51,533 nucleotides of DNA from an uncultured bacterium (GCA_964607375.1 CAZSJY010000004.1:1-51533), one strand, 5' to 3'. Counted from the stretch's first letter, positions 34,761 through 48,662 are shown. Translations and numbers: made by a program. The notes: generated by a model not told the origin, from the sequence alone.

Positions 34761-36140
34761 TTAGTCATTACTTTGGTTAGGTAAAGTAATTGTTACAATA
34801 AAGCCAGGATTAGCATTAGCAAATGTAATTGAACCATTATGGTATTCGACTATTTTACTGCAGATTGCTAATCCTAATCCAACACCAGTTTTGGGTGAAA
34901 CATTTTGATCTGAACGATAAAATCTCTTTGATAGGATTGGGATTTCTTCTTCGATTACTCCAGGTCCATCATCGCGTATGATCAACTTGATATTATTATC
35001 AATTTGTTTCAATATTATTTCAATAAATCCATTTTCATAGTTGTATTTAATTGCATTATCAAGAATATTACGAATAAGCATCTTCAACCATTGTTTATCA
35101 CCTGAAAACTCTATAGAATCTACTTCAGTTAAACTCAATTGTAATCCCTTTTGTGCTATATTGGTTTGGAAGTGAGTTATGGTATCAAAAACAAGATCAT
35201 TCATCCAGACTTTTTCTTCAACAATTGGGCTTTGGGAAGATTCCAATAGTGCTAAATTTGTCAATGTTTATGTTATATCTTCAAGATATCTGATTTCTTC
35301 ACTTATTGAATCTACAGATTCCTTTATGTGTTCTTTGTCATCAGAGGTTAAAACGGATGAGATTTCACTTTTAATAATTGCTAATGGTGTTTTGAGTTCA
35401 TGAGATGCATTTGCACTGAATTGTTTTACCGATTTGAATGATTGTTCCAAACGATTTAGTAAACCGTTAATCTGTTTAACCATATTTGAAATTTCTTCAT
35501 CTTTGCAATCAGTGAGAATTCTAGTTTTTAGATTTTCTCCTTTAATGGAGTTTAATTGTTGAGTAATATTACCAAATGGTCGGAGTGATTTTTGGCTTAT
35601 ATACAAACCACCGAAATAGCTCAACAATAATCCGAAAATTAAAACAGGAATTAATGTTGCTAAAAACGACTTTTTATATTCTGTAACTCTTTTCATTGTA
35701 ATCGCGGCATTAATGTATCCAATAATTTCATCATTATCTTGAATAGGTTTTGTGATTCCTCGAATATTATAAGAGTGGAAATTTGCATTATAGAATTGGT
35801 TTTTAGTTTTTGGCCAAGGGAGAGAGTTGTCTTGTAAATTATCTGTTTTATGTGTGATTTCATTATGTTGCATAATTTCAACAAAAATTGGGTAATCAGA
35901 GCCAAGAAGATGTTCAGGTTCTGTCCATTCTCTAGAATATGAAATTAGCAAACTATCATTTTTGTACTGTAGAGTATATGCCATTTCATCAGCTTCAATT
36001 AAAAGGTGTTCATCAATTGATTTTTTTATCAAGTTAACATTTGAGAAATAGTTTATCATACTTACAATAAAGAGTATCAACAGAAATACTATGGTAGAAA
36101 CTGAAGCTAATTTTTGTCGAAGAGAAGGAAAATAGATCAT
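34761..36140 (-). pseudogene. CusS/CzcS-like HAMP sensor histidine kinase interrupted by one in-frame TAA (35268-35270)
   Basis: 2 TM, HAMP, ASHELKTPL, then EDIT*TLTNLALLE continuing in frame into NILDNAIKY, DDGPG, GVGLGLAI. Confidence 0.85.
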
Positions 36141-36811
36141 TGCTCTATGGATATTTTGTATCCTATACCACGAACAGAATGAATAAGAGAATTAGCACCA
36201 TTGTAATGCAACTTATTCCGCAGATAGTTGATGTAAACATCTACAATATTTGATTCTGGGGAAAAATTTAATCCCCATACTTCCTTCAGAAGTACTTCTC
36301 TTGATTGGGGTTTATCCAAATTCAACATTAGAAATTCGAGGAGTTCATACTCTTGAGTGGAAAGAAAAATTCGTATATTGTTTCTTGTAATATGTCGATT
36401 TGATGTATCAATTACCAAATCATCAATTTCTAAAGTAGTATTTTTTTCTAGTTTGCTTCTTCGATAAAGTGAGTGAATTCTTGCCACTAACTCTGAAAAG
36501 TCAAATGGTTTACAAAGATAATCATCTGCACAGGTTTCAAGAGCCTTTACCCTATGTTGAACTGAATCCATCGCTGTTAACATTAAAATTGGAGTTGAAA
36601 TATCAGTTTTTCTTACATCTTCGCAAATTTCAATACCGGATTTTTCTGGCAACCTCCAGTCTAGGATAATGATATCAAATTTGTTTTGAGAAGCCATTTC
36701 GAAACCGGATTTCCCATCAAAACAAATTTCAACAGTCATATTTTGTTTTTCTAACTGTCGAGCAATTGAACGAGCAAGCTTAATTTCGTCTTCTACAAGT
36801 AGAATTTTCAT
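36137..36811 (-). CDS. OmpR-family response regulator (CusR-like)
   Basis: ILLVEDE, IILDWRLP, DDYLCKPF, SNIVDVYINYLRNK, VRGIGY. Confidence 0.92.
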   Translation of the reverse strand: MKILLVEDEIKLARSIARQLEKQNMTVEICFDGKSGFEMASQNKFDIIILDWRLPEKSGIEICEDVRKTDISTPILMLTAMDSVQHRVKALETCADDYLCKPFDFSELVARIHSLYRRSKLEKNTTLEIDDLVIDTSNRHITRNNIRIFLSTQEYELLEFLMLNLDKPQSREVLLKEVWGLNFSPESNIVDVYINYLRNKLHYNGANSLIHSVRGIGYKISIEQ

Positions 36812-36860
36812 AGTATAAATTAAATATCCTTTACTGTTATATATCAAAATAAAATATGTT

Positions 36861-36876
36861 TATTAGAGTATTCTAA
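36861..36876. promoter_or_regulatory. putative operator TATTAGAGTATTCTAA, copy 1
   Basis: TTAGA-GTAT-TCTAA dyad ending 85 nt before ATG 36961; identical copy at 40190-40205. Confidence 0.65.
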
Positions 36877-36960
36877 TTTTTATTTATCATCTGCTAAAAG
36901 ATACATTTGTTTAGGATATATATGAAACATATTAATCATTAATTAGAAAAAGGAAAAAAA

Positions 36961-39900
36961 ATGAAGAATTATAAAATTACATTTAGTTACAAAGTGATAC
37001 CTATGGTAGCTCTTTTAGGTATGTTAATTTCGTTTGTATATCCAGAACATAATTCTGGTTACAATTGTATGAATTGTCATTTTAACAATGGTCCGGGAGA
37101 TGCAGTGTTTGATTTTTCAGGAACAGTGTATTCCTCATCTCAGGGAGGTAGTCCAATGTCGGGTGTGACCGTGAGAATACAAGATAGCACAGGTCATATT
37201 TTTACAGAAAACACACATAATCCAACTGGAAATTTTTGGATGGAAACCGATGAAGATGACAGAGTAACTCCTGTCCCTCCTTATACAGCAACAGTTTCAA
37301 AGGATGGGGTCACAATTCCTATGGTATCTGCATTTTCTAATGGATCGTGTAATAGTTGTCACAATAGTAATATGAGGATATTCTTTGATGAAAACTACAA
37401 TAATGATCCTCCAACAGTAGTAATAGTTTCACCTGCAAATGGAGATAATTTTGAAATATCTGATATTGATGTAGAGATTTTATCAGAAAATATTACTGAT
37501 GGTGATTACTTTAATGCTTATATCGATGGTATTTTAGTAGGTACATTTTCTTCAACTGCATTTACATTGCAGGATATTTCTGATGGAGAACATAATCTCG
37601 AAGTAGCGATAGTTGAGAGTAACGGACAAGAATATGATAATCCTGAAGCAAGAGCAACAGTATTTTTTACGATAAATTCTTCCTCAACTTTGACAGTTGA
37701 TTATTTGACACAAATCCAGCCAATATTAAACAACAATTGTGTAAGTTGCCATAGTTCAAGCTGGGCTGCAGGGGGAGCGAGTTACGAAGATTATAATTCT
37801 ACAATTAACACTGGAGGTGTGGTACCTTTCGATCATTCAAGTAGTTTAATGTGGCAAGTTGTAGACAATGGAAGTATGCCTACTAGTTACAATTTAAGTA
37901 GTAGTGATATAGATTTGATATCTCAATGGATTGATGAGGGAGCATTGCCTGAAGGCTCGATTTCTTCTCCTCCAATTTCTGGTTTTACATCAGATATAAC
38001 AAATGGTAATGCACCCTTATCAGTTAGCTTTACCGATATTTCTATTGTTGGCGATGCTCCAATCATTTCTTGGGATTGGGAATTTGGTGATGGTGGTACG
38101 AGTGTAGAACAAAATCCTACATATGTTTATTCAAATGTAGGTACTTTTTCCGTTAGTTTAACAGTTGTTGACGAAAATGGTTTATCAGACTCAATTACAG
38201 AAATTGACTTTATCACAGTTACTGAAGAACAAGTGAATCCAAACTACCCAAATTGGTCTGTTAATCCACCCTCGTTTGAATTTAATATGACCTTAACCAG
38301 TGTTATATTCTTTAATGGAGAAGAGTCATTTGATGAAAGTGATTTACTTGGTGCATTTGTAGATGGAGAATGCAGAGGTTTAGCGTCACCGTCATTTTTC
38401 CCCGTTACAGAACACTATACAATAAATTTAATAATTTACAGTAATCTGACAACAGGAGAAGAAATTACATTCAGAGCTTATGATTATTCGGAAGATATTG
38501 TTTTTGAAACAGTAACAGAAACAATTAGTTTTAATGTAAATGATAATCAAGGAAACGATATAAGCCCAATTGAACTTCACGCCATCTCTGAACAAATGGA
38601 TTTGATAACATTAATAATACCTCAGGAAACTGCATTTACTGGTGATGACATTTCACTCGGAATTGCACTTGACTTACCACCTGATGTTTTTTTTAATGCA
38701 ATTGAACTTAATATAAATGGTTATTTTGATGGTTTGGATTTAGTTTCAATAACTACAGAAAATAGTTTATCTTCAAGCTGGGAAGTAGAATATAATGAAG
38801 TTGATGAGGAGTTATTAGTTGCTCTATACGGTTCGAGTTCTATTGAATCCAGTGGAACCTTGTGTTATCTCGATTTTGTAATTGAGGAATCGGCTGACGG
38901 TTTTATTCCGATTAATATATCGGATGCAATTATTGATGAAACTTTGTATGATATAAACTTAGTTTCAGGTGGTGTAGAAGTTGAAGGTGGTGTTCCTCCT
39001 GTTGCAGATTTCTCTGCTACGCCTGTAACTGGTTTTGGAGAATTGGATGTTCAATTTACAAATCTGTCTGATTTAGGAAATGGTGACATAATTTCATATC
39101 AATGGGATTTTGGAGATGGTGGAACTTCGAACGAAGAAGATCCATCGCATACTTATTATGAGATAGGTATCTACTCCGTAACTTTGGAAGTTAGTACGAC
39201 TTTTGGTTACGATGAAGTTACTCAAACAGACTTAATTATTCTGGGAATTGCAGGGGATGTAAGTTTGAATGGAGAGGTTCACGCTTACGATGCAGCATTA
39301 ATTCTGCAATACCTAGTTGATGAACAAGAACTATCGCCTCTTCAGTTATTCAATTCTGATGTTAGCTTGAACAATGTAGTAACTGCATACGACGCTTCTT
39401 TGATAGCTAAATTCGTGGTTGAATTAATTGATGATCTTCCATATCCTGAAGTATTATCAGCTGATGGTGTGATTTCTATGAATGATCTTGAGATTTATTC
39501 TCAACAGGATCAGATTTCTATACCATTGTATTTGACGGAAGGTGAGAATATTTTGTCATTCGAAACAGAAATCGAATTTGATTCTGAATTGTTGAATCTA
39601 GAAAATATTATTTGGCCAAATCAAGAAGATGGTTTTATGATTGAGATTAATGAAGATGATGGTATAATCAAAATTGCAGGAGCTGGCCAAACTCCCTATG
39701 GAAATGAGGAAATATTTGCTGAGTTAATATTTGAAAGTGAAAGTGAATTTATTGGAGAAGCTGTAGTAAATATTTCATCTCATCGTTGGAATGAAGAAGA
39801 AATTCAGGAAGATATTACTCAATCAATATTAACGTTTGTACTTGACATATCAAGTAATGAAATTCCTAATGATTTTCAACTATCTAAAATATATCCCAAT

Positions 39901-40131
39901 CCTTTCAATCCAACTGCAACCATTGAGTACTTATTACCAATTCAAACTAGTATTGAGTTAGTAATATTCGATTTACAAGGATTGCAAGTGCAGGAAATTT
40001 GGAATGGTAAACAAGTTGCAGGTATCCACCAAGTTTCCATTGATGGTTCTGAAATGACAAGTGGTGTATATTTTGTAAGGATGACAACTCCATATAATAG
40101 CCAAATACAGAAACTTGTTTTAATGAAGTAA
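36961..40131 (+). CDS. secreted triheme cytochrome c with 2 PKD, 2 cohesin-like, dockerin and C-terminal sorting domains
   Basis: Signal peptide; CMNCH, CNSCH, CVSCH; two WxFGDG; GDVSLNGEVHAYDA..SDVSLNNVVTAYDA; YPNPFNP..KLVLMK. Confidence 0.85.
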   Translation: MKNYKITFSYKVIPMVALLGMLISFVYPEHNSGYNCMNCHFNNGPGDAVFDFSGTVYSSSQGGSPMSGVTVRIQDSTGHIFTENTHNPTGNFWMETDEDDRVTPVPPYTATVSKDGVTIPMVSAFSNGSCNSCHNSNMRIFFDENYNNDPPTVVIVSPANGDNFEISDIDVEILSENITDGDYFNAYIDGILVGTFSSTAFTLQDISDGEHNLEVAIVESNGQEYDNPEARATVFFTINSSSTLTVDYLTQIQPILNNNCVSCHSSSWAAGGASYEDYNSTINTGGVVPFDHSSSLMWQVVDNGSMPTSYNLSSSDIDLISQWIDEGALPEGSISSPPISGFTSDITNGNAPLSVSFTDISIVGDAPIISWDWEFGDGGTSVEQNPTYVYSNVGTFSVSLTVVDENGLSDSITEIDFITVTEEQVNPNYPNWSVNPPSFEFNMTLTSVIFFNGEESFDESDLLGAFVDGECRGLASPSFFPVTEHYTINLIIYSNLTTGEEITFRAYDYSEDIVFETVTETISFNVNDNQGNDISPIELHAISEQMDLITLIIPQETAFTGDDISLGIALDLPPDVFFNAIELNINGYFDGLDLVSITTENSLSSSWEVEYNEVDEELLVALYGSSSIESSGTLCYLDFVIEESADGFIPINISDAIIDETLYDINLVSGGVEVEGGVPPVADFSATPVTGFGELDVQFTNLSDLGNGDIISYQWDFGDGGTSNEEDPSHTYYEIGIYSVTLEVSTTFGYDEVTQTDLIILGIAGDVSLNGEVHAYDAALILQYLVDEQELSPLQLFNSDVSLNNVVTAYDASLIAKFVVELIDDLPYPEVLSADGVISMNDLEIYSQQDQISIPLYLTEGENILSFETEIEFDSELLNLENIIWPNQEDGFMIEINEDDGIIKIAGAGQTPYGNEEIFAELIFESESEFIGEAVVNISSHRWNEEEIQEDITQSILTFVLDISSNEIPNDFQLSKIYPNPFNPTATIEYLLPIQTSIELVIFDLQGLQVQEIWNGKQVAGIHQVSIDGSEMTSGVYFVRMTTPYNSQIQKLVLMK

Positions 40132-40152
40132 ACTTCAAGTAACAATTTTAAA

Positions 40153-40190
40153 AATAGAAAAACGCTCTCATTGGAGAGCGTTTTTCTATT
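40153..40190 (+). terminator. intrinsic terminator, potentially bidirectional
   Basis: Perfect 17 bp stem AATAGAAAAACGCTCTC-attg-GAGAGCGTTTTTCTATT. Confidence 0.85.
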
Positions 40191-40205
40191 ATTAGAGTAT
40201 TCTAA
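40190..40205. promoter_or_regulatory. putative operator TATTAGAGTATTCTAA, copy 2
   Basis: Identical to 36861-36876; ends 89 nt before ATG 40294. Confidence 0.65.
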
Positions 40206-40293
40206 CTGTTTTCACTAAAATGTATTTAATATTTTACGAATGAGAATACAATGAGTATTCATTTGAGTAAATCAAAAAAAGAAGGGGAAAAAA

Positions 40294-43200
40294 ATGAAAA
40301 GAGTAATGATAATATTAACAATATTGAGTGCTTACTTTTGTGTAAGTTTCGCTCAATCTGAGGAATTTGAACCTCGGCAACCACATTATTCAGGATACAA
40401 TTGCTCTAATTGTCACAGTTTTGAATTTGGAGGAACTGTATATACTGATGCAAGTGGGGGTTCACCGGTTTCAGGTGTTCAAGTGCAAATTACTGGAAGT
40501 AATGGGAGTACAGCAAACTTTACTACTAATTCTTATGGCAATTTTTGGACATCAAGTTCTTCACCAACACCTCCATATACTACTTCAATTAGTTATAACG
40601 GAAATACTATCTCGATGGTTTCCAGTTTTTCTGATGGGTCGTGCAATGGGTGTCATTCTAATGGATCACGGATTTATGTTCCACCGACACAAAGTCCACC
40701 AACATCAAACTTTACAGGAAATCCAACAAGTGGTGATGTACCTTTGTTAGTCAATTTTACAGATCAATCTTCACAAGGTAGTAGTGCAATAACCAGTTGG
40801 AGTTGGAATTTTGGAGATGGTGGCTCTAGTTCTATTCAGAATCCAACACATACTTACAATTCTGTGGGGACTTTTTCAGTAACTTTAATGGTTACCGATG
40901 CAAGTGGTTTATCTGATTCATTTACTAGAACAAGTTACATAACCGTAAATCAGGCACAGTTTGCACCTCCAACTGCAGAATTTTCAGCAAATCCAATTAC
41001 TGGAAATGCACCTTTGTCAGTGAGTTTTGTCGATTTATCAACACCAGGTGATGGAGCTATCACAAATTGGAATTGGAGTTTTGGAGATGGTGGTTCTAGT
41101 TCTATTCAGAATCCAACACATACTTACAATTTAGCTGGTACTTTCAATGTTAGTTTAACTGTAACTGATTCTAATGGTTTGTCAGATACATTTAATCAAA
41201 CAAATCTAATAACAGTTAATGGAGAACCTACACCAGGTGAGTATGTTTTGATAGCTTGGAGCAAGGGTGGAATGCATTGTATGAATTCTAATTTTGATAA
41301 TTTTATGATTCTTCCACCTGCTAATACTATACAAGCACAATTAATCTATAAAACAGACAATCAATTCCCGGATATTGTTACAGATGGTTATAGAATTGAA
41401 TATTCAATACCGGGGAATACATATTCTGTAGGAAAAACCAATTTTTGGGATTTTGCAAGTGATATATTTGGCACAATGATACCAGAAAATATTGGACTAA
41501 CAGGTAATGGAATGACTGGTGAAATGGAAATTTCAGATAATTATTTTTTAGCTTCTGCAATTCCAATAACACCATTTACTGATTCAGATTGGAATACTTT
41601 AGATCCATATCAATTGATTCATTTGGAAGCATATTCTAATGCAACTGGTGAATTAGTTGCTTCATCTGATGTAACAATTCCTGTAAGTACAGAAATGCAC
41701 TGCGTGGATTGTCATGGTTCTGAAACAAATATATTATTTGACCACGAAGACGAATTTGATCCTAACAATACACCGATTGTTTGTGGAAATTGTCATGCTC
41801 AAAATCCATTAGGATTTCCTGGTATTCCAGAAGCACTCTCATTTTCATATCAAATGCACAAAAAACATGCGAGTGAAGTTGGTCCTGAAAATTCCATTTC
41901 ATCTTGTTATAAATGTCATCCGGGTCCAGAAACTCAGTGTTTGAGGGGTACAATGAATGAAGACTTTGGAATGGTTTGTCAAGATTGCCACGGTACTATG
42001 AATGATGTATGGCAATCTATTGAAAATGGTCGAGAACCTTGGGTAGATGAACCCACCTGTGGGGAATGCCATGGTGAAAACTATGCTGAAGAACCAAATA
42101 CGCTTTACCAAGCATCAAAGGGACACGGAGATATGTTCTGTTCAGCTTGTCATGGTAGTACACATGCTATCTATCCAACTCGAGAAGCAAATGACAACTT
42201 GCAAAGCATAGCACTTCAAGGGCATGCTGGCACAATATCAGAGTGCACAGTTTGTCACTCAAGTGTACCTGGTGGTGCTGGTCCGCACGGATCAGATAAT
42301 CCACCAGACTCACCACCTCCACCCACTAATTTAACTGCTGTAGGAGAAGTAGGAGATTATGATATGGATGGAATTTTTGACAATGCAATTAAATGGTCTT
42401 GGAATCATCAAGATTATACTACTTCTGTAGATTGTAATGGTGATGAAATTCCTGGATGGTGGATTGATGAATTTGTTGGAGATGGAAATTGTGATGTACT
42501 TTTTGATTGCGAAGGATTTGATTTTGATGGAGGAGATTGCTCCGACTTTGAAAATTGTGGGACTTCGTTGGTAATCACAAATACCGGAGATTATGACGAT
42601 GATGGGGAGGAAAATGGTCCTTGTTGGTCAGATAACTCTGCATATTTCTATTTTAGCTGGGAAGGTGGTTGTTTGGCAACAACTCTATATTATAGCGGAG
42701 CTCAAGATGGAATGGATTTAACATCTTACGGATTTACAGATGGTTTTTATTTTTATGGTTTTGATAATGATGTAACAGAAGACTTCACTTTAGATTTTGA
42801 CGACGGTTCAAGTGCAAATCAAACGGCAACTTCAGGTATCTGTGATGCTACAGAATGTGCCGAAGGATATATCCAAGATTGTGTTGATGAAGACTGTATT
42901 ATAGAAAATTGGATTGGAGATGGATATTGTGATGGCATTTCTCAAGAGTGGGGAGCTGATCTTTGTTGTTACGATCTGGATGGTGGAGATTGTACTGAGG
43001 AAGAATGTGCTGATGATGATAGATCTATTGGTGAATCTTCAAAATTTATTAGTGCATCAAAGTTAGATTCGCAAACTGTATCTAAACTTTCAAAAGTGAA
43101 TAGAAATAGAACTCTTAATAATCGTTATGATTATGTTACCTTTGAAATCTCTGTAACTTGGGATGGTGGTGGAAATACTTGGGTTACATCCGGAACAGAA

Positions 43201-44445
43201 TTTTTGGTTTACGGATTTGAACAAGGTGAGATTGGTTGTGCTTCTGTAGTCGCAGTTGGGAATGATGGGACTGTGTCAGAATCTACACCAGAAATATGTG
43301 CAAGTGCTGGTGATCCAGCAGGTGAAACAGAAATTTCCATTGATATGAGTGATGGTTGGAACTGGTTCTCTGTGAATGTTGAAGCAGAAGATATGAGTTT
43401 AGATGCTGTTCTTTTATCACTCGGTAGTGATGCAACTTTGATTAAAAACCAAACCGGTTTTGCAACATATTACGACGACTTTGGATGGTATGGTTTAGAT
43501 TTTATAGATGTAACAAGTATGTATATGATTTTCTTGGAAAATTCAAGTGAACTTGTTTTTGCAGGAACTGCAGTAGATTATGAAAACACACCAATTAGTT
43601 TATCTGAAGGTTGGAACTGGATTGGCTATTTACCACAAGCATCTAATAATCTAGACGAAGCTCTTGATAGTATTGGAGAAAGTGCTTCTATGATAAAAAG
43701 TCAAACTGCTTTTGCTACTTACTATGAAGGTTTTGGTTGGTATGGAATGGATTCTCTCGATCCAGGTGTTGGCTATATGTTAATGATGTCAGAATCAGCA
43801 GAATTAATTTATTCTTCACCGACTACTCTGATTAAGAATGTTGCTGAATTTACAGAACTATACTGGACGGTAAATCCACATCAATATGAGAATAATATGA
43901 CAATGACAGCATACTTTAATGAAATTGGAAAAAGTGATGTTCTTGCAGCGTTTGTAGGTGACGAAATCAGAGGTGTTACTGGTGCAACTTACTTTCCACC
44001 AATTGGGGCACATACTTTCAATCTGATGATATATGGTAATCCAGGTGAAGAAATCCGATTTGTTGTTTATCAATCTTACAAGGATGTTGAAGTTGATATT
44101 GAAGAGAATATTACCTTCGTTAACAATGGTAATTTGGGGAATGATTTTGAACCAGTTATGTTAAAAGTGAAAGTAATTCCGATAGCTTATAATCTTTCTC
44201 AGAATTATCCTAATCCATTCAATCCAACTACTACGATTGAATACGATTTACCACAGGAAACATTCATTACAATTGATATCTACAATGTAATGGGTCAGCG
44301 GATTGATGTATTATTAAACAGCAATCAAGTTGAGGGATGTCATAAAGTTGTATGGAATGCAGATAGTTATCCAAGTGGTATCTATTTTGTTAGAATGGTG
44401 ACAGAAACATTTGAAATGTCAAGGAAGATGCTTCTTGTGAAGTAA
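40294..44445 (+). CDS. secreted nine-heme cytochrome c with 2 PKD, LNR-like Cys repeats, GWNW repeats and C-terminal sorting domain
   Basis: Signal peptide; 9 CxxCH counted; GDGxCD..DGGDC twice; NYPNPFNP..KMLLVK. Confidence 0.87.
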   Translation: MKRVMIILTILSAYFCVSFAQSEEFEPRQPHYSGYNCSNCHSFEFGGTVYTDASGGSPVSGVQVQITGSNGSTANFTTNSYGNFWTSSSSPTPPYTTSISYNGNTISMVSSFSDGSCNGCHSNGSRIYVPPTQSPPTSNFTGNPTSGDVPLLVNFTDQSSQGSSAITSWSWNFGDGGSSSIQNPTHTYNSVGTFSVTLMVTDASGLSDSFTRTSYITVNQAQFAPPTAEFSANPITGNAPLSVSFVDLSTPGDGAITNWNWSFGDGGSSSIQNPTHTYNLAGTFNVSLTVTDSNGLSDTFNQTNLITVNGEPTPGEYVLIAWSKGGMHCMNSNFDNFMILPPANTIQAQLIYKTDNQFPDIVTDGYRIEYSIPGNTYSVGKTNFWDFASDIFGTMIPENIGLTGNGMTGEMEISDNYFLASAIPITPFTDSDWNTLDPYQLIHLEAYSNATGELVASSDVTIPVSTEMHCVDCHGSETNILFDHEDEFDPNNTPIVCGNCHAQNPLGFPGIPEALSFSYQMHKKHASEVGPENSISSCYKCHPGPETQCLRGTMNEDFGMVCQDCHGTMNDVWQSIENGREPWVDEPTCGECHGENYAEEPNTLYQASKGHGDMFCSACHGSTHAIYPTREANDNLQSIALQGHAGTISECTVCHSSVPGGAGPHGSDNPPDSPPPPTNLTAVGEVGDYDMDGIFDNAIKWSWNHQDYTTSVDCNGDEIPGWWIDEFVGDGNCDVLFDCEGFDFDGGDCSDFENCGTSLVITNTGDYDDDGEENGPCWSDNSAYFYFSWEGGCLATTLYYSGAQDGMDLTSYGFTDGFYFYGFDNDVTEDFTLDFDDGSSANQTATSGICDATECAEGYIQDCVDEDCIIENWIGDGYCDGISQEWGADLCCYDLDGGDCTEEECADDDRSIGESSKFISASKLDSQTVSKLSKVNRNRTLNNRYDYVTFEISVTWDGGGNTWVTSGTEFLVYGFEQGEIGCASVVAVGNDGTVSESTPEICASAGDPAGETEISIDMSDGWNWFSVNVEAEDMSLDAVLLSLGSDATLIKNQTGFATYYDDFGWYGLDFIDVTSMYMIFLENSSELVFAGTAVDYENTPISLSEGWNWIGYLPQASNNLDEALDSIGESASMIKSQTAFATYYEGFGWYGMDSLDPGVGYMLMMSESAELIYSSPTTLIKNVAEFTELYWTVNPHQYENNMTMTAYFNEIGKSDVLAAFVGDEIRGVTGATYFPPIGAHTFNLMIYGNPGEEIRFVVYQSYKDVEVDIEENITFVNNGNLGNDFEPVMLKVKVIPIAYNLSQNYPNPFNPTTTIEYDLPQETFITIDIYNVMGQRIDVLLNSNQVEGCHKVVWNADSYPSGIYFVRMVTETFEMSRKMLLVK

Positions 44446-44458
44446 TCTGACTCAAGTA

Positions 44459-44496
44459 AAGAGAGTGGTAGGAAAACCTCCCCCTACCACTCTCTT
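44459..44496 (+). terminator. stem-loop after the nine-heme gene (leaky terminator or RNA stabiliser)
   Basis: 14 bp stem AAGAGAGTGGTAGG/CCTACCACTCTCTT with a poor U tail. Confidence 0.6.
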
Positions 44497-44530
44497 ACTA
44501 CCTTTACCTCAATAATGGAAGGAGCTTTCA

Positions 44531-45004: not shown

Positions 45005-45019
45005 TAAAAAAAACAATAT

Positions 45020-45952
45020 ATGAATGTTCATGATAATAATAAAATGATGTTAACTTTCGATATCTATGAGGAAGAATATTTGAAAGTTTTCCACAAATTT
45101 ATTTTGATATTATTTTCATTGGCATTACTTACTGTTTCTTTTTGGTTTATTCAAAATGCAGGTGAATATTATTTAATTCCTCTTATCTCTCGGCCACAAC
45201 ATATTGCTCATAATCTGTGGAAACCTAGCGGAATATATGGACATACAGTAGGCATCATTGGCACATTAATGATGGTTTTTATGTTATTGTATTCAATAAG
45301 AAAACGCATAAAATTAATGAGAAGATGGGGCGCATTACCAAATTGGTTAAATTACCACATTGCACTTGGCATTGCTGGACCATTACTAATTACTTTCCAT
45401 ACTTCCTTGAAACTTGGTGGACTTGTTTCAGTAGCATATTGGGCTATGGTTTCTGTAGTTGTTAGTGGATTTATTGGAAGATATATTTACATTCAAATTC
45501 CGCACAATAGCGATGGTAATGAGATTTCATTATCAGAGCTCAAAGAGACTTACAGTAATTTTATAAAATCATTAACAGAGGAATTTAATATCTCTGAGAA
45601 AAATATTAAGTTGATTGAAGAGAATCTCAACATAGATAAAATTTCTCAAAGTAGTTTAACCTCTATATTTTTCCTTTTATATTCAGATATTTTTGGATGG
45701 ATTAAATCTAAAAAAGAGTATAGTAGTCTAATCACGAGATTTGGAGTACCTATATCAAAAACAAAACAATTTAGGAAAATCCTAAAGAAAACTACTAAGA
45801 TATCTCGTCAAATTGCGTTTTGGAATTCTGCACAAAAATTATTTCATTATTGGCATGTGATTCATAAACCATTTGCCTATGCAATGACCTTAATTGTGAT
45901 TTTACATATCACGATTTCATTTATCTTTGGTTATACTGGGTGGTTTCTATGA
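45020..45952 (+). CDS. multi-pass membrane protein, ferric-reductase/cytochrome b-like (start may be TTG 45080)
   Basis: About 5 hydrophobic helices with His at WLNYHIALG, TFHTS, WHVIHKP, ILHITI. Confidence 0.7.
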   Translation: MNVHDNNKMMLTFDIYEEEYLKVFHKFILILFSLALLTVSFWFIQNAGEYYLIPLISRPQHIAHNLWKPSGIYGHTVGIIGTLMMVFMLLYSIRKRIKLMRRWGALPNWLNYHIALGIAGPLLITFHTSLKLGGLVSVAYWAMVSVVVSGFIGRYIYIQIPHNSDGNEISLSELKETYSNFIKSLTEEFNISEKNIKLIEENLNIDKISQSSLTSIFFLLYSDIFGWIKSKKEYSSLITRFGVPISKTKQFRKILKKTTKISRQIAFWNSAQKLFHYWHVIHKPFAYAMTLIVILHITISFIFGYTGWFL

Positions 45953-47262
45953 ACCACGAGCCCATATTTACTTGGTTTCTTGGAATAATAATACTTCTTG
46001 CGTTTGTTATCCCATACATTTACAGTATTAGAAAAAAAGAAACTGAGACTAAACTTAGATTAAAAAAGACCAAATTGTTAGGGCAAGATAAGCCATTTGT
46101 CCAACATCCTATTATAAATCGTTCGGTATGTATAGGGTGTGGTATTTGTGTAGATTCTTGTCCTGAAGGAGATGTTTTAGGATTATTGTATGGTCGGTCA
46201 ACAATTATTCATGGAAGCCATTGTGTTGGTCATGGACAGTGTGCTGCAAACTGCCCAGTAGGTGCTATTGGTGTTGGATTGGGGGATATTAGTGAAAGAG
46301 AAGATATTCCATTACTAACAGAAAACTACGAAACAAATATACCTGGAATCTATATTGTAGGTGAATTAAGTGGTTTTGCGTTAATTAGAAATGCTATTGA
46401 ACATGGTGTGACAGCTGTTGGTCGAATTGCTCAAAATATGAAGAGTCATTCAAAAGAAATGTATGATATTGTAATTGTTGGAGCAGGACCTGCAGGCTTG
46501 GCTGCTGCACTCAAAGCTAAAGAACTTAAACTCAATTACATTGTGATTGACCAATACGAGCCTGGTGGAACAATTTTACATTACCCAAGAAGAAAACTCA
46601 CTTTAGTACAAAGAGTTGCACTTCCACTTTATGGCGAATTAAAGAAATATGAGTACTCAAAAGAAGAACTATTAGACATTTGGACTTCGCTCATCAAAAC
46701 TCATACTCTTAACCTCCAAACAAACTGCAAACTACTAAATGTTACACAACCAAATGGACATTTTTCTGCACGGACAACAGAAGGTGAGTTAAAGACTAAA
46801 AATGTTATTTTAGCACTTGGAAGACGAGGAACTCCTAATAAATTGAATATCCCTGGTGAAGAAACAAGTAAGGTAATGTACAAATTGATTGACGCAGATA
46901 CTTTCAAAGAACAGAATATTATAGTAGTTGGAGGTGGGGATAGTGCGATTGAAGCAGCTATTGGTTTGGCAAGCCAACAAGGAAATCAAGTTTTAGTATC
47001 TTATAGGAAAGCTAATTTTTTCAGACTAAAAGCTCGAAACGAAACAAATCTAGAGAAAATGATGAATGAAAAAAGACTCTCTGTGCTATTCAATTCTAAT
47101 CTTAAAGAAATTAAAACAAAGGATGTCAATATAGATTATTCAGGTGAAACTATCTCAAAACCTAACGATTTTGTATTTGTATTTTCTGGCGGGGAAGTAC
47201 CATTTCCTATACTCCATTCGTTGGGAATTGAATTCGGAAAAAAAATCATACCTAAAGCTTAG
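45940..47262 (+). CDS. membrane-anchored 2x[Fe-S] ferredoxin fused to a thioredoxin-reductase-like FAD/NADPH oxidoreductase
   Basis: N-terminal TM; CIGCGICVDSCP, CVGHGQCAANCP; GAGPAG; GGGDSA and YRK; no CxxC redox pair in the flavoprotein part. Confidence 0.87.
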   Translation: MVSMNHEPIFTWFLGIIILLAFVIPYIYSIRKKETETKLRLKKTKLLGQDKPFVQHPIINRSVCIGCGICVDSCPEGDVLGLLYGRSTIIHGSHCVGHGQCAANCPVGAIGVGLGDISEREDIPLLTENYETNIPGIYIVGELSGFALIRNAIEHGVTAVGRIAQNMKSHSKEMYDIVIVGAGPAGLAAALKAKELKLNYIVIDQYEPGGTILHYPRRKLTLVQRVALPLYGELKKYEYSKEELLDIWTSLIKTHTLNLQTNCKLLNVTQPNGHFSARTTEGELKTKNVILALGRRGTPNKLNIPGEETSKVMYKLIDADTFKEQNIIVVGGGDSAIEAAIGLASQQGNQVLVSYRKANFFRLKARNETNLEKMMNEKRLSVLFNSNLKEIKTKDVNIDYSGETISKPNDFVFVFSGGEVPFPILHSLGIEFGKKIIPKA

Positions 47263-48662
47263 TGGTTAAAAGAGTGAAACACTCTATCATATTACATACT
47301 ATTTTATCGATTGTCTATTCTCAAATATCACCAGGACCCTTAGCTGAATTACATACTCATTTAGAAGGAATTAATAATTGCACTCAATGCCATGAACTAG
47401 GAAAGAAAGAATTAAATAGTGGATGTTTAGATTGCCACACTCCTTTAAAAACTCTAATTGAGAATAAGGTAGGATATCACAAAGACAAGTATGATAATTG
47501 TGAAAAGTGTCACCTAGATCATTATGGCTTTGAATTTAATATGATATTTTGGCCTGATAGTATTCACAATTTTAACCATTCTGAAGCAAATTATGAACTA
47601 AATGGTAAACATCAAAAACTTGATTGTAAACAGTGTCATAACCAAAAATATATTGTTAAAGATGAGGTTATAAATTGGTACAAAGAAAATCAATCAATAA
47701 ATGGACTAAATCGCTCTTTTTTGGGGTTATCACAAAAGTGTTTCACTTGTCATAAGGATTATCATCAAAAACAAGTATCCATAGAATGTCAGAATTGCCA
47801 CGATACTCAAAATTGGAAAAATGCGATTCAAACTTACAATCATGATAAATCGGAATACATACTAGATGGAGCACATATATCTGTAGAATGCGAGAAATGT
47901 CATATTCCTTTTGATAATAATACTCAAATGTGGAATCTTACGATGTTGCAATATGAAAACTGTTTATCTTGTCATGAAGATATTCATTTGTCAAGTTATG
48001 GTAAAAATTGTAAAACTTGCCATTTTACTTCACATTGGACAAAAGAACTAAAGTACTTTGAACACGATTCAACTATGTATAAACTTCGAGGGAAACATAA
48101 AAATGTTGTTTGTCTTAAATGTCATAAAGAAAATGTGAGAGGTGAAAAGTTAGATTTCAAATCGTGTTCTTCTTGTCACATTGATGTACACAAAAAACAG
48201 TTTTCTAAGAAATTATGTGATGAATGCCATACTGTGGAGAGATTTTCTCCATCAACGTATACAATTAGAGATCATAATCAGTCTAAGTACAATCTTGAAG
48301 GTTCTCACATTGCAGTTAAGTGTGATGAATGTCATTTAACTGTAACAGCTGATTCCGCAAAAACAGTTCAATATAACTTTGAAGATCAAAGCTGTATTCA
48401 ATGCCATAAAGATATTCATCGAAATCAGTTTACAAAACACGAATCAGACCAATGTGAGCTTTGCCACAATACGAATTCATTTTCGATAGTTGAGATTGAT
48501 CATAATATTACTTCATACCCATTAGATGGAAAACACCAAAATGTTAATTGCAACGAATGTCATTTTACCATTGATGATGCAATAGGTTCTTTCGTCCAAT
48601 ATACGGGTTTCCCATATCGTTGTGAAGATTGCCATATACTTAAGGAACTAGAAACCAAATGA
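47262..48662 (+). CDS. 17-heme periplasmic cytochrome c (c7/c3-like repeats)
   Basis: 17 CxxCH counted; repeated H...Y.L.G.H..xCxxCH unit; signal peptide before QISPGPL. Confidence 0.92.
   Translation: MVKRVKHSIILHTILSIVYSQISPGPLAELHTHLEGINNCTQCHELGKKELNSGCLDCHTPLKTLIENKVGYHKDKYDNCEKCHLDHYGFEFNMIFWPDSIHNFNHSEANYELNGKHQKLDCKQCHNQKYIVKDEVINWYKENQSINGLNRSFLGLSQKCFTCHKDYHQKQVSIECQNCHDTQNWKNAIQTYNHDKSEYILDGAHISVECEKCHIPFDNNTQMWNLTMLQYENCLSCHEDIHLSSYGKNCKTCHFTSHWTKELKYFEHDSTMYKLRGKHKNVVCLKCHKENVRGEKLDFKSCSSCHIDVHKKQFSKKLCDECHTVERFSPSTYTIRDHNQSKYNLEGSHIAVKCDECHLTVTADSAKTVQYNFEDQSCIQCHKDIHRNQFTKHESDQCELCHNTNSFSIVEIDHNITSYPLDGKHQNVNCNECHFTIDDAIGSFVQYTGFPYRCEDCHILKELETK

What the first reader, a model, noticed from the sequence alone, without database searches (positions are those of the whole stretch)
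36961..40131. Cytochrome-scaffoldin: hemes, cohesin-like domains, dockerin and sorting tail in one protein
Seen order: signal, diheme module (37066-37362), Ig-like, monoheme domain (IQPILNNNCVSCH..MP..QWIDEGA), PKD, W.VNP domain, cohesin-like (~38600-38985), PKD, dockerin (~39250-39440), cohesin-like (~39465-39840), PNPFNP tail. Known: cohesin-dockerin pairs build cellulosomes. Inference: with both partners it could self-polymerise or recruit dockerin enzymes onto a redox-active surface scaffold. I know no described cohesin-bearing c-type cytochrome. The cohesin calls are by pattern only.
Basis: partly seen in the sequence, partly recalled or inferred. Interest (0 to 1): 0.88.

Follow-up and report, generated by a model that had tools for sequence, protein, structure and literature searches.

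The report
Surface cytochrome on a cohesin–dockerin base
A marine bacterium exports a three-heme protein whose rear half is a common "socket–plug–socket" anchoring cassette, so the unusual part is the heme–cassette fusion and not a dedicated scaffold.

Summary
Both cohesins and the dockerin pass Pfam cut-offs, match solved cohesins and dockerins by profile, and fold as cohesins.

The interpretation needs re-framing. Residues 549-1053 are not a purpose-built scaffoldin. They are a widespread Coh-Doc-Coh-T9SS-tail cassette: its Doc-CohB unit matches 1,537 clusters. It sits on diverse cargo in Marinimicrobia, KSB1, Calditrichaeota and Bacteroidota. None of 256 other cassette proteins examined carries a heme motif.

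The heme part is the passenger. It consists of a rare diheme head (10 of 301 phylum genomes) and a PSCyt1-type monoheme domain. The protein is a lineage-specific mosaic with no orthologue in the same-genus genome.

Context: a 9-heme T9SS paralogue lies next door and a candidate trans-envelope cytochrome operon lies downstream. The genome has only 3 cohesins and 8 dockerins, 6 of the latter on tail-less hydrolases.

Function (surface redox module, possible docking site) is inferred. Binding was not shown.

I found no paper describing such a fusion. Earlier notes of this scan, unchecked by me, report analogous heme-cohesin-dockerin proteins on other DNA (Poribacteria).

The parts
36961..37041 (+). 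Probable Sec signal peptide (aa 1-27: Lys-rich start, hydrophobic stretch VIPMVALLGMLISFV). Some annotations start at Met15.
   Evidence: Read from the sequence; no signal-peptide predictor was available. 1042-aa versions starting at Met15 are in the cluster.
37048..37383 (+). Diheme 'head' (aa 30-141): CxxCH (C36), a transthyretin-like beta-sandwich, then CxxCH (C130). His30 and Met121 are candidate distal ligands.
   Evidence: H30, C36, C39, H40, M121, C130, C133 and H134 are invariant in 14 of 14 heads. AF2: pLDDT 77.4, pTM 0.73, six strands. No significant PDB fold match, best E 0.03. The module is in 10 of 301 phylum genomes.
37411..37605 (+). Ig-like domain (Big_7-like, aa 151-215)
   Evidence: Big_7 scores 22.5 bits against a cut-off of 24.1. 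It is 46% identical to segments of giant ORFs in G006 and G008.
37693..37950 (+). PSCyt1-type monoheme cytochrome c domain (aa 245-330): C260xxCH, Met306 in G-S-M-P, and W-I-D-E-G-A.
   Evidence: PSCyt1 scores 18.6 vs 22, below cut-off here. It is 42% identical to the N-terminal PSCyt1 of a G015 protein that scores 40.6 bits. CxxCH, G-x-M-P and W-I-x-E-G-A are kept in 11 of 11 aligned copies.
37999..38220 (+). PKD domain 1 (aa 347-420)
   Evidence: PKD_4 scores 60.1 bits.
38233..38595 (+). Unnamed 'W.VNP' module (aa 425-545), a common module of this lineage's T9SS cargo
   Evidence: No Pfam or NCBIfam family. It is found in 20 ORFs of this genome, often about 100 aa before the tail, and in the neighbour P0002. 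The Atlas gives only 'hypothetical' clusters.
38605..38985 (+). Cohesin A (aa 549-675), first element of the cassette
   Evidence: Pfam Cohesin 24.8 vs 24.1. Cassette CohA HMM 114.2 bits. The profile hits PDB cohesin 3ul4_A at E 1.2e-9. AF2 block pLDDT is about 90-98, and Foldseek matches cohesins at TMt 0.72-0.73.
38992..39234 (+). PKD domain 2 (aa 678-758), an insert between CohA and the dockerin that most cassettes lack
   Evidence: PKD_4 scores 69.7 bits. The CohA-to-CohB gap is 60-79 aa in 99 of 112 cassettes and 140-159 aa in only 5 of 112; here it is 156 aa.
39250..39447 (+). Dockerin (aa 764-829), cassette type, with two loop-helix repeats (DVSLNGEVHAYD and DVSLNNVVTAYD)
   Evidence: Dockerin_1 scores 38.2 vs 22.9. 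Cassette dockerin HMM 94.6 bits. D766, D777 and D811 are invariant across 86 cassettes. Three helices in the AF2 model. The profile hits 4uyq_B at 2.6e-11 and 8x39_A at 5.5e-12.
39451..39849 (+). Cohesin B (aa 831-963), joined to the dockerin by a short conserved L-P-Y linker
   Evidence: Pfam Cohesin 29.1 vs 24.1. Cassette CohB HMM 143.0 bits. The profile hits 4uyp_A at 1.3e-6 and 2xdh_A at 2.3e-6. Pro827 is nearly invariant.
39889..40119 (+). Type-A T9SS C-terminal sorting domain (aa 977-1053)
   Evidence: Por_Secre_tail 45.6 vs 27. TIGR04183 38.5 vs 23. The genome has 54 such tail matches and a SprA gene.
40294..44445 (+). Neighbouring paralogue P0002 (1383 aa): same diheme head, 2 PKD, 7 more CxxCH (9 in all), W.VNP module, T9SS tail; no cohesin or dockerin.
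   Evidence: Its orthologue in same-genus G001 is 69% identical over 676 aa.
34761..36847 (-). Divergent two-component system: OmpR-type regulator (36137-36847) and a histidine kinase split by an in-frame TAA (35268-36140 and 34761-35264).
   Evidence: The same pair lies among the cytochrome genes in G001, where the kinase is intact at 455 aa.
45020..51024 (+). Downstream overlapping operon: His-rich membrane protein, membrane-anchored Fer4 + FAD/NAD(P) oxidoreductase, 17-heme cytochrome, 9-heme cytochrome, and a 507-aa protein ending YRF. A candidate trans-envelope electron conduit; context only.
   Evidence: It starts 574 bp after P0002. The 507-aa family is in 63 of 301 phylum genomes but was not found in G001.
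15591..17861 (+). One of the six dockerin-tagged, tail-less enzymes of the genome: endonuclease I + 2 LTD + C-terminal dockerin. A candidate docking partner.

Best explanation
This is a cell-surface c-type cytochrome exported by the type IX secretion system of a small-genome marine Marinimicrobia-type bacterium. It is a mosaic of two halves.

Front half (the passenger, aa 30-545):
- a rare diheme head
- an Ig domain
- a PSCyt1-type monoheme domain
- a PKD domain
- a lineage-typical W.VNP module

Rear half (aa 549-1053): the generic CohA-Doc-CohB-tail cassette that many T9SS cargo proteins of the FCB group carry as a base, here with an extra PKD inserted.

Shown:
- the module identities and their order
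- conservation of the heme motifs and candidate ligands
- presence of cytochrome maturation genes and T9SS genes
- the cassette's ubiquity, and the rarity of hemes on it

Inferred:
1. The protein crosses the inner membrane by Sec, receives three hemes from the ResB/CcsA system, and is carried out through SprA. It is then held at the surface.
2. Its hemes act as an outermost redox module, together with the neighbouring 9-heme T9SS cytochrome. They may be fed by a cytochrome conduit such as the operon downstream. The likely targets are extracellular acceptors or donors, such as particle-bound or complexed metals or organic matter.
3. The cassette positions the protein by cohesin-dockerin contacts with itself or with the one other cassette protein. 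One cohesin, CohA by my guess, may be a docking site for the six dockerin-tagged hydrolases, because no other cohesins were found in the genome.
For: Architecture and domain identity.

Hemes:
- There are 3 CxxCH motifs, and 0 of 20,000 shuffles gave two or more.
- Both head motifs plus His30 and Met121 are invariant in 14 of 14 heads.
- The PSCyt1 CxxCH and G-x-M-P Met are kept in 11 of 11 copies.
- ResB and CcsA are adjacent on C18.

Export:
- The type-A tail scores above cut-off.
- A SprA gene is present.
- PorU-like and PorV-like genes are present.
- The genome has 54 tail matches.

Cassette:
- The Doc-CohB unit matches 1,537 clusters, 434 of them at E <= 1e-10.
- A CohA sits directly upstream in 112 of 149 hits.
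- Layouts are A-D-B in 150 and D-B in 88 of 256.
- 139 of 149 hits have a tail motif.
- Named hits are from Marinimicrobia, Neomarinimicrobiota, KSB1, Calditrichaeota and Bacteroidota.

Redox context:
- The 9-heme T9SS paralogue lies 162 bp downstream.
- Downstream lie a Fer4/FAD oxidoreductase, 17-heme and 9-heme cytochromes and a 507-aa protein ending YRF.
- A third cytochrome on C15 (8 hemes) has a T9SS-type tail motif.
- A two-component system is conserved beside these genes in G001.

Docking:
- The genome has 8 dockerins and 3 cohesins, and cassette-specific HMMs found no further cohesins.
- Six Sec-signal hydrolases end in a dockerin with no tail.
- Cassette and enzyme dockerins form two sequence classes.
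- In relatives, heme heads are themselves fused to dockerins.
Against: - The PSCyt1 and other cytochrome Pfam hits of this protein are below their cut-offs. Heme attachment is not shown.
- The diheme head has no solved-structure counterpart.
- The link to the downstream conduit rests on adjacency in this genome only. There is a 574-bp gap. The 507-aa family is found in only 4 of the 10 genomes that have the diheme head, one of them weakly. It was not found in same-genus G001, which does keep the P0002 orthologue.
- 0 of 256 other cassette proteins and 0 of 30 cohesin loci in the phylum carry CxxCH. G001 has no orthologue. The fusion may therefore be a recent, possibly neutral, domain shuffle.
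- The cassette's own dockerin could occupy its cohesins and leave no free docking site.
- The sequence class difference between dockerins is not a measured specificity.
Confidence: 0.5

Rival explanations
1. Dedicated 'cytochrome-scaffoldin'. The main job of the protein is to recruit the genome's dockerin-tagged hydrolases, and perhaps copies of itself, onto a redox-active surface scaffold. This would couple hydrolysis of organic matter to electron transfer.
For: - It holds two of the genome's three cohesins.
- Six hydrolases end in dockerins: GH114, a purple-acid-type phosphatase, PGA_cap, lipase/S9, an EEP nuclease and endonuclease I.
- No other cohesins were found, even with cassette HMMs.
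- A T9SS-anchored scaffoldin with dockerin-bearing non-cellulolytic enzymes has been inferred for Cloacimonadota (PMC8542988, passages read).
Against: - The cohesins belong to a generic cassette present on hundreds of non-redox cargo proteins, so they were not selected for this role here.
- Sister genera have 44-117 dockerin matches but only 1-8 cohesin matches, which is not a scaffoldin-like ratio.
- No CBM was found.
- No binding was shown.
Confidence: 0.2
2. The cassette is a self-contained stalk or clasp. The dockerin binds its own flanking cohesin(s), within one molecule or between copies, and serves only to space or lattice T9SS cargo. The hemes do surface chemistry unrelated to a respiratory conduit, for example reductive iron acquisition or detoxification of reactive oxygen.
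For: - Doc and CohB always travel together: D-B or A-D-B in 238 of 256.
- The Doc-CohB linker is short and conserved, with a nearly invariant Pro.
- The AF2 model of the four-domain stretch reaches pTM 0.62 although its PKD part is poorly predicted. This is a weak hint that the other domains pack together.
- The head-bearing cytochromes occur in G001 without the downstream 507-aa gene.
- The organism is from seawater metagenomes.
Against: - Inter-domain packing could not be inspected, because no coordinates or error map were available.
- It leaves the six tail-less dockerin enzymes without any cohesin partner in this genome.
Confidence: 0.2
3. Functionless mosaic. A recent shuffle of common T9SS-cargo modules whose heme motifs are not loaded, or do nothing useful.
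For: - G001 has no orthologue.
- It is unique among 256 cassette proteins.
- The adjacent histidine kinase is split by a stop codon.
Against: - The ORF is intact and 99.8-100% identical in six copies from independent assemblies.
- All heme motifs and ligand candidates match the family invariants.
- Both dockerin Ca-loop aspartates are kept.
Confidence: 0.07

Closest known systems
T9SS-anchored scaffoldin-like protein and C-terminal-dockerin enzymes inferred for 'Ca. Stygibacter' (Cloacimonadota), Front Microbiol 2021, PMC8542988 (passages read)
   Same: A diderm outside the Clostridia. Cohesin-bearing protein with a T9SS C-terminal domain. Signal-peptide enzymes ending in dockerins that are not cellulases. 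Genomic inference only.
   Different: That protein is 3,755 aa with tandem cohesins and CBM2/CBM3, and no hemes are reported for it. Here there are two cohesins flanking a dockerin in a compact cassette, and the passenger is a cytochrome.
Adaptor scaffoldins of cellulosomes that carry both cohesins and a dockerin (e.g. ScaB dockerin / ScaC cohesin, PDB 4uyp/4uyq; CipA cohesins 1aoh, 3kcp)
   Same: Homologous cohesin and dockerin modules: profile E 1e-6 to 3e-11 and cohesin fold at TMt 0.72-0.73. Cohesins and a dockerin in one polypeptide.
   Different: No cellulases, no CBM, no SLH or sortase anchor. A Gram-negative T9SS tail instead. The dockerin sits between the cohesins and not at the C-terminus. 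Heme domains are present.
PSCyt1 (PF07635, 'Planctomycete cytochrome C') modular secreted proteins
   Same: The monoheme domain (aa 245-330) is of this family by homology to relatives that pass the cut-off. As in that family, it is fused to non-redox modules in large secreted proteins.
   Different: The score here is below the Pfam cut-off. The PSCyt2/PSD partners that I recall being typical of the planctomycete proteins were not seen. It is combined here with a second, unrelated diheme module and a cohesin-dockerin cassette.
Outer-surface multiheme cytochromes of extracellular electron transfer (MtrC/OmcA, PgcA, OcwA) and porin-cytochrome conduits (names recalled; reviews seen only as search listings)
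   Same: c-type hemes displayed outside the outer membrane. Gene neighbourhood with large periplasmic multiheme cytochromes and a candidate outer-membrane protein.
   Different: No sequence membership: the MtrC/MtrF domain scores E 0.77 for this protein, and the 17-heme neighbour scores 43.9 bits against a DmsE cut-off of 192. Only 3 hemes, spread over two modules. Export by T9SS and not T2SS. I found no paper joining 'type IX secretion' and 'multiheme'.
Non-cellulosomal cohesin/dockerin proteins of ANME archaea and their sulfate-reducing partners (PMC9012536 section 32 read; PMC5244752 and PMC10553843 passages read)
   Same: Cohesin-dockerin modules in organisms that move electrons outside the cell. 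Scaffoldin-like proteins with one dockerin and several cohesins. A role in cytochrome adhesion has been suggested as a hypothesis.
   Different: The passages I read describe no cytochrome fused to a cohesin. Those are archaeal S-layer or other anchors, not T9SS.
Heme-LRR-cohesin-dockerin-T9SS-tail proteins of Poribacteria, and a 'widespread undescribed cassette' in a Zixibacteria-type adhesin, noted earlier by this scan (e1-1509676, e1-1235925, e1-775496, e1-362621; unchecked AI notes)
   Same: The same combination of heme c module, cohesin, dockerin and sorting tail in one secreted protein. The same idea of a generic cohesin-dockerin base.
   Different: Another phylum, with an LRR passenger and a reportedly large gene family. 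Here it is a single mosaic gene with different heme modules. No sequence look-alike was returned. I could not test those notes.

Membership tests
c-type cytochrome (covalent heme c) | CxxCH heme-attachment motif(s) | tested here: met
   Three motifs at aa 36, 130 and 260. 0 of 20,000 shuffles gave two or more.
c-type cytochrome (covalent heme c) | Conserved distal axial ligand candidates | tested here: met
   His30 and Met121 are invariant in 14 of 14 diheme heads. Met306 in G-x-M-P is kept in 11 of 11 PSCyt1 copies. Their assignment as ligands is inference.
c-type cytochrome (covalent heme c) | Match to a curated cytochrome c family above its cut-off | tested here: not met
   PSCyt1 18.6 vs 22; Cytochrome_CBB3 18.3 vs 27; Cytochrome_C7 19.2 vs 24.8. 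Relatives 42-54% identical to this domain; of those scanned, PSCyt1 scores 40.6-43.7.
c-type cytochrome (covalent heme c) | Cytochrome c maturation system in the genome | tested here: met
   ResB (121.5 bits) and CcsA-type Cytochrom_C_asm (79.6 bits) are adjacent on contig C18.
c-type cytochrome (covalent heme c) | Heme actually attached | not testable with these tools
   Needs a heme stain or mass spectrometry.
Cohesin (PF00963) | Profile match above the gathering cut-off, each copy on its own | tested here: met
   24.8 and 29.1 bits against 24.1. The first is marginal, but it scores 114.2 bits with a cassette-specific CohA HMM.
Cohesin (PF00963) | Cohesin beta-sandwich fold | tested here: met
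   AF2 block pLDDT is about 90-98 over CohA and about 84-97 over CohB. Foldseek top hits are cohesins: 6kgf_C TMt 0.73 rmsd 3.3; 3ul4_A 0.73; 4uyp_A 0.72; 1aoh_B 0.72. The profile hits PDB cohesins at 1.2e-9 to 2.3e-6.
Cohesin (PF00963) | Binds a dockerin | not testable with these tools
   Needs a binding assay.
Dockerin type I (PF00404) | Profile match above cut-off and two duplicated Ca-loop/helix segments | tested here: met
   38.2 vs 22.9. The two repeats keep Asp at loop positions 1 and 12. D766, D777 and D811 are invariant in 86 cassettes. Three helices in the model.
T9SS type-A cargo | C-terminal sorting domain above cut-off | tested here: met
   TIGR04183 38.5 vs 23. Por_Secre_tail 45.6 vs 27.
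T9SS type-A cargo | T9SS machinery in the genome | tested here: inconclusive
   SprA_N scores above cut-off in a 2181-aa ORF. The PorU-like match scores 307 vs 420 and the PorV-like match 130 vs 250, both below the equivalog cut-offs. GldK/L/M/N were not searched.
Cellulosomal scaffoldin | Two or more cohesins on a non-catalytic protein | tested here: met
   Two cohesins and no catalytic domain found.
Cellulosomal scaffoldin | Dockerin-borne glycoside hydrolases for plant cell wall, and a cellulose-binding module | tested here: not met
   The six dockerin enzymes are a GH114, a phosphatase, PGA_cap, lipase/S9 and two nucleases. No CBM was found in the protein.
Coh-Doc-Coh-tail cassette of T9SS cargo (unnamed; defined here) | CohA, cassette-type dockerin, CohB and type-A tail, in that order, at the C-terminus | tested here: met
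   All four parts score with cassette HMMs: 114.2, 94.6 and 143.0 bits, plus the tail. The order matches 150 of 256 proteins. It differs by a PKD insert, a spacing seen in 5 of 112.
MtrC/OmcA-type outer-surface decaheme cytochromes | MtrC/MtrF domain II/IV match | tested here: not met
   PF22113 scores E 0.77, 9.7 bits, against a cut-off of 30.

The most novel reading that the evidence does not exclude
In this phylum the cohesin-dockerin pair may be a secretion adaptor and not just surface glue. Proteins that carry a Sec signal and a C-terminal dockerin but no T9SS tail could bind the cohesins of cassette-bearing cargo in the periplasm. They would then ride out through the T9SS translocon with that cargo. 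There are six such proteins here, and many of the 44-117 dockerin matches per genome in sister genera may be of this kind. This tri-heme protein, which holds two of the genome's three cohesins, would then be both a carrier and a surface redox partner for nucleases, phosphatases and a lipase. The only secretin found in the genome belongs to a type IV pilus cluster, so no other route across the outer membrane is evident.
Probability: 0.1. Interest if true: 0.85.

Novelty: new variant of a known kind. Interest (0 to 1): 0.55.

Why it matters
**T9SS-exported cytochrome.** If heme-loaded and surface-exposed, this would be a c-type cytochrome delivered by type IX secretion. I found no paper joining 'type IX secretion' and 'multiheme'. 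It would extend extracellular redox chemistry to abundant, uncultured, small-genome marine bacteria.

**The cassette.** More broadly useful is what the gene led to: a Coh-Doc-Coh-tail cassette on a very large number of T9SS cargo proteins across the FCB group.

**Dockerin-rich secretomes.** Marinimicrobia-type genomes carry 44-117 dockerin matches beside only a handful of cohesins. I found no description of this; papers holding 'Marinimicrobia' or 'SAR406' together with 'dockerin' number 0.

**A small test system.** This genome has 3 cohesins and 8 dockerins, so all pairings fit in one 24-well binding experiment. That makes it a convenient place to learn what non-cellulosomal cohesin-dockerin systems do in Gram-negative bacteria.

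Tried and rejected
- **Complex prediction.** Chains were Doc-CohB, CohA and an enzyme dockerin from contig C6 as the scored partner. Result: 'no answer', score 0.00 in both runs, controls not run. This says nothing for or against binding.
- **Whole-protein homologue search and genome-contig scan.** Both were swamped by PKD repeats.
- **Word-based search with the diheme head.** It found only the protein's own cluster and missed even the neighbouring paralogue, so it says nothing about the module's range.
- **Joint alignment of the whole N-terminal region (A3).** It mis-registered the second heme motif of the heads onto the PSCyt1 motif. I did not fold it, and folded the head alone instead (A4).
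- **Fold search of the diheme head.** No hit at E <= 0.001. The best hits are generic transthyretin-like sandwiches. The PgcA non-heme domain (9i0d) appears at E 0.098, which is not significant.
- **RNA evidence.** No RNA holder is listed, only 8 DNA runs from 2 studies.
- **Inter-domain packing of the cassette model.** It could not be read, because no coordinates or error map are exposed.
- **Phylogenetic profile of the diheme head against the downstream 507-aa gene.** Only 4 of 10 overlap, one weakly. I rejected it as support for coupling.
- **Sigma-70 promoter and terminator scan of 36700-45100.** The counts were at or below the shuffle expectation, so it was uninformative.
- **PSCyt1-LTD-dockerin-tail proteins of G015 and G011.** I considered whether they hide a cassette cohesin, which would be a second heme-cohesin fusion. 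No cohesin was detected with cassette HMMs.
- **Peer et al. 2009 on non-cellulosomal cohesins.** The paper is not held. What I say of it comes from citations in other papers.
- **Earlier-findings look-ups.** Two by sequence failed with a tool error. A repeat and a look-up by place returned nothing.

Full report
**1. Observation**

The ORF 36961..40131 (+) is open and encodes 1056 aa. It has three CxxCH motifs, at aa 36, 130 and 260, and these use 6 of the protein's 8 cysteines. In 20,000 composition-preserving shuffles, none had two or more such motifs.

I scanned the protein segment by segment against Pfam.
- Two heme motifs bracket a CarboxypepD_reg-like sandwich.
- A Big_7-like Ig domain follows (22.5 bits, just under the 24.1 cut-off).
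- Next is a monoheme cytochrome domain (PSCyt1 18.6 vs 22, under cut-off).
- Then PKD, followed by a 120-aa stretch with no family.
- Then Cohesin (24.8 vs 24.1), PKD, Dockerin_1 (38.2 vs 22.9) and Cohesin (29.1 vs 24.1).
- Last is a type-A T9SS tail (45.6 vs 27; TIGR04183 38.5 vs 23).

The gene is not a chimera. Six further sequences from NCBI, ENA, JGI and Logan assemblies are 99.8-100% identical. Single contigs from runs of two studies run from the heme region into the cohesins with no differences.

**2. The cohesins and dockerin are genuine**

I aligned 85 homologues of residues 540-975 (A1). A profile of that alignment hits solved structures in three separate stretches:
- the CohA stretch hits cellulosomal cohesins (3ul4_A at 1.2e-9; also 3kcp, 6kg8, 2vn5_A, 1aoh)
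- the dockerin stretch hits dockerins (8x39_A at 5.5e-12; 4uyq_B at 2.6e-11)
- the CohB stretch hits cohesins again (4uyp_A at 1.3e-6; the Archaeoglobus cohesin 2xdh_A at 2.3e-6)

The AlphaFold2 model has mean pLDDT 85.4. Block values are about 84-98 over both cohesins and about 81-97 over the three-helix dockerin. The inserted PKD is poorly predicted.

Foldseek ranks cohesin structures first. Single cohesins match at target TM-scores of 0.72-0.73 and rmsd 3.0-3.5 Å.

Both dockerin repeats keep Asp at loop positions 1 and 12. D766, D777 and D811 are invariant across the 86 aligned cassettes.

**3. What the rear half really is**

I searched the Doc-CohB unit (aa 760-975) against 1.84 billion cluster representatives. 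It has 1,537 relatives at E <= 0.001, 434 at <= 1e-10 and 56 at <= 1e-30. In the listed hits the unit ends roughly 80-100 residues before the C-terminus. Of the 149 best hits other than the query's own cluster, 139 have a T9SS-type tail motif in the last 110 residues.

A CohA-type cohesin lies directly upstream of the unit in 112 of those 149. I added 107 more proteins from a second search, making 256, and classified them with three HMMs built from the hits. The layouts were:
- CohA-Doc-CohB: 150 proteins
- Doc-CohB: 88 proteins
- CohB-Doc-CohB: 8 proteins
- other combinations: the remaining 10

The CohA-to-CohB spacing is 60-79 aa, just the dockerin, in 99 of 112. It is 140-159 aa in 5 of 112. 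This protein's 156 aa falls in that second group because of its PKD insert.

Named members come from Candidatus Marinimicrobia, Neomarinimicrobiota, KSB1, Calditrichaeota, Bacteroidales, Chitinophagales and Paludibacter. Their passengers include parallel beta-helix, FG-GAP, LamG and regulator-propeller domains.

So residues 549-1053 are a generic base cassette of T9SS cargo in the FCB group. They are not a scaffold built for this protein. I found no paper describing the cassette. An earlier, unchecked note of this scan (e1-362621) reached the same view for a Zixibacteria-type adhesin.

**4. The heme part**

*Diheme head.* The N-terminal head recurs in the neighbouring gene P0002, in three genes of the same-genus genome G001 and in two genes of G036. 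With a profile it was found in only 10 of 301 sampled genomes of the phylum, mostly as small 155-227-aa ORFs. In 14 aligned heads, both CxxCH motifs plus one His (His30 here) and one Met (Met121) are invariant. That is what two hemes with His/His and His/Met ligation would need, but the ligand assignment is my inference. The head folds with moderate confidence (pLDDT 77.4, pTM 0.73) as a six-stranded sandwich with the heme motifs at either end. It has no significant counterpart among solved structures.

*Monoheme domain.* This is a PSCyt1 domain. It is 42% identical to the N-terminus of a G015 protein that scores 40.6 bits for PSCyt1. The CxxCH, the G-x-M-P methionine and the W-I-x-E-G-A motif are kept in 11 of 11 aligned copies.

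*Maturation.* The genome has adjacent ResB and CcsA-type genes, a System II cytochrome c maturation pair. Ten ORFs have two or more CxxCH motifs. By regex, three of these have a T9SS-type tail motif: this one, P0002 and an 8-heme protein on C15. For the first two the tail is also confirmed by Pfam.

**5. How unusual is the fusion?**

- None of the 256 other cassette proteins has a CxxCH motif.
- None of the 30 cohesin-bearing loci delivered from the phylum survey has one in its longest frame.
- In relatives, heme heads are fused to dockerins but not to cohesins:
  - PSCyt1 + LTD + dockerin + T9SS tail (G015, G011)
  - PSCyt1 + BNR/FG-GAP + dockerin (G022)
  - PSCyt1 + CBM48/CBM20 + dockerin (G032)
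  - a diheme head + dockerin (G036)
- G001 has a clear orthologue of P0002 (69% over 676 aa) but none of this protein. This protein's head is only 40-44% identical to the G001 heads, and G001's cassettes sit on other passengers.
- The W.VNP module is in 20 ORFs of this genome.

The protein is therefore a lineage-specific mosaic of modules that are each common in this lineage's T9SS secretome.

Against uniqueness, three earlier notes of this scan report a family of heme-LRR-cohesin-dockerin-tail proteins in Poribacteria. I could not test them. No sequence look-alike was returned, and one paper holds 'Poribacteria' with 'dockerin', on an unrelated subject by its title and abstract.

**6. Context**

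*Upstream, divergent.* An OmpR-type regulator and a histidine kinase that is split by an in-frame TAA. The same pair lies among the cytochrome genes in G001, where the kinase is intact.

*Downstream.* P0002 starts 162 bp after this gene. After a further 574 bp comes an operon of overlapping genes:
- a His-rich membrane protein
- a membrane-anchored Fer4 + FAD/NAD(P) oxidoreductase
- a 17-heme cytochrome
- a 9-heme cytochrome
- a 507-aa protein ending in YRF

I read this operon as a candidate trans-envelope electron conduit, but that is inference. No curated family matches its last two proteins. The 17-heme protein reaches only 43.9 bits against a DmsE cut-off of 192.

The coupling to this protein is weak. 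The 507-aa family is in 63 of 301 genomes but in only 4 of the 10 genomes with the diheme head, one of them weakly. It was not found in G001.

**7. The cohesin-dockerin economy of the genome**

The 1.66-Mb genome is 98.8% complete. It has 8 dockerin matches and 3 cohesin matches. Cassette-specific HMMs find no more cohesins. Two cohesins are in this protein. The third is in a PKD-Doc-CohB-tail protein on C13 whose N-terminus runs off its contig.

The other six dockerins end six hydrolases. At least five of these start with an N-terminal signal-like sequence by eye; the N-terminus of the C20 ORF is uncertain. None has a T9SS tail. They are:
- GH114 + propeller
- a purple-acid-type phosphatase
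- PGA_cap + PKD
- a lipase/S9 hydrolase
- an EEP nuclease + LTD
- endonuclease I + 2 LTD (window 15591-17861)

Their dockerins form a sequence class distinct from the two cassette dockerins. They differ at the loop positions 10-11 that decide specificity in cellulosomal dockerins; that rule is recalled, and the class difference is.

The only secretin in the genome lies in a PilM/PilO/PilQ-type cluster with a PilB-like ATPase, PilC and a prepilin peptidase. No classical type II secretion system is evident.

In sister genera of the order the imbalance is extreme. There are 44-117 dockerin matches per genome, many at the scoring cap, against 1-8 cohesin matches. Matches are not exact copy numbers. 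Cohesins occur in 193 of 301 genomes of the phylum.

**8. Mechanism**

*Best-supported reading (about 0.5).* A T9SS-exported, surface-held tri-heme cytochrome. The hemes are the passenger and the Coh-Doc-Coh cassette is the common base.

Shown:
- the modules
- the conserved heme chemistry
- the maturation and export genes
- the cassette's generality

Inferred:
- heme loading and surface location
- a role as an outer redox module alongside P0002
- use of one cohesin as a docking site for the six dockerin hydrolases

*Rivals.* A dedicated scaffoldin (0.2), a self-docking stalk with hemes doing conduit-independent chemistry (0.2), and a functionless shuffle (0.07).

*What was tried.* The complex prediction gave no answer, and no RNA run holds the gene.

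**9. Comparison and novelty**

The closest published idea is the T9SS-anchored scaffoldin-like protein with dockerin enzymes inferred for Cloacimonadota (PMC8542988, passages read).

Cohesin-dockerin modules have also been linked, as a hypothesis, to cytochrome adhesion in ANME consortia. I read passages of PMC5244752 and section 32 of PMC9012536.

Literature counts in the library searched:
- 'cohesin domain' with 'c-type cytochrome': 3 papers, and both works listed are ANME papers
- 'type IX secretion' with 'multiheme': 0 papers
- 'Marinimicrobia' with 'dockerin': 0 papers
- 'SAR406' with 'dockerin': 0 papers

I file this as a new variant of a known kind: a non-cellulosomal cohesin-dockerin T9SS surface protein with an unprecedented cytochrome passenger.

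The taxon label rests on the names of the nearest cassette homologues, on the marine source of the runs and on an earlier unchecked note. I did not place the genome phylogenetically.

Noticed in passing
Order-level relatives (G002-G040); Most genomes of families f1-f4 of this order carry 44-117 Dockerin_1 matches each, many at the scoring cap, but only 1-8 cohesin matches. This genus is reduced to 7-8 dockerins. I found no paper pairing Marinimicrobia or SAR406 with dockerin.
   Followed up: partly
window 38605-40119, and 256 database proteins: A CohA-Doc-CohB-T9SS-tail cassette occurs on very diverse cargo across Marinimicrobia, KSB1, Calditrichaeota and Bacteroidota. Its Doc-CohB unit alone is in 1,537 clusters at 50% identity. 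It appears undescribed in the literature I could search.
   Followed up: yes
window 35268-35270 (- strand): The histidine kinase next to the gene is split by an in-frame TAA into a HisKA piece (35268-36140) and an HATPase piece (34761-35264, same frame). The G001 orthologue is intact at 455 aa. This could be a pseudogene, a strain variant or a sequencing error.
   Followed up: partly
window 45020-51024: An operon of overlapping genes: a His-rich membrane protein, a membrane-anchored Fer4 + FAD oxidoreductase, a 17-heme and a 9-heme cytochrome, and a 507-aa protein ending YRF. The last belongs to a conserved 510-560-aa family found in 63 of 301 phylum genomes. It looks like an unnamed porin-cytochrome-type conduit.
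   Followed up: partly
G000 contig C61:2588-9854 and C15:21027-22556: A second multiheme cluster (17, 11, 11, 4 and 4 CxxCH), and a third cytochrome (8 CxxCH, 509 aa) that has a T9SS-type tail motif.
   Followed up: no
G000 C6:531-8017: Three dockerin-tagged enzymes sit in tandem: GH114 + propeller, a purple-acid-type phosphatase, and PGA_cap + PKD. Each ends in an enzyme-type dockerin.
   Followed up: partly
L120:4509-5024 (G001), L122:3161-3667 (G036): The small stand-alone diheme heads have a Cys shortly after a hydrophobic leader (for example ...LVLFCVGC..., ...LVISC...). They may be lipoproteins, unlike the T9SS-tailed versions.
   Followed up: no
PDB 8x39_A / 8x3a_A ('Serine protease', 151-152 aa): This is the best solved-structure match to the cassette dockerin (profile E 5.5e-12). 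It scores better than the classical cellulosomal dockerins. I did not look into what the entry is.
   Followed up: no
window 38233-38595, and 20 ORFs of G000: An unnamed module of about 115 aa, starting W-x-V-N-P, repeats in many T9SS cargo proteins of this genome. There are up to 4 copies in one 1871-aa ORF, and it often lies just before the tail.
   Followed up: partly
G000 C7:15957-26406: The genome's only secretin lies in a PilM/PilO/secretin/PilB-like/PilC/prepilin-peptidase cluster. This is a type IV pilus system and not a type II secretion system.
   Followed up: yes
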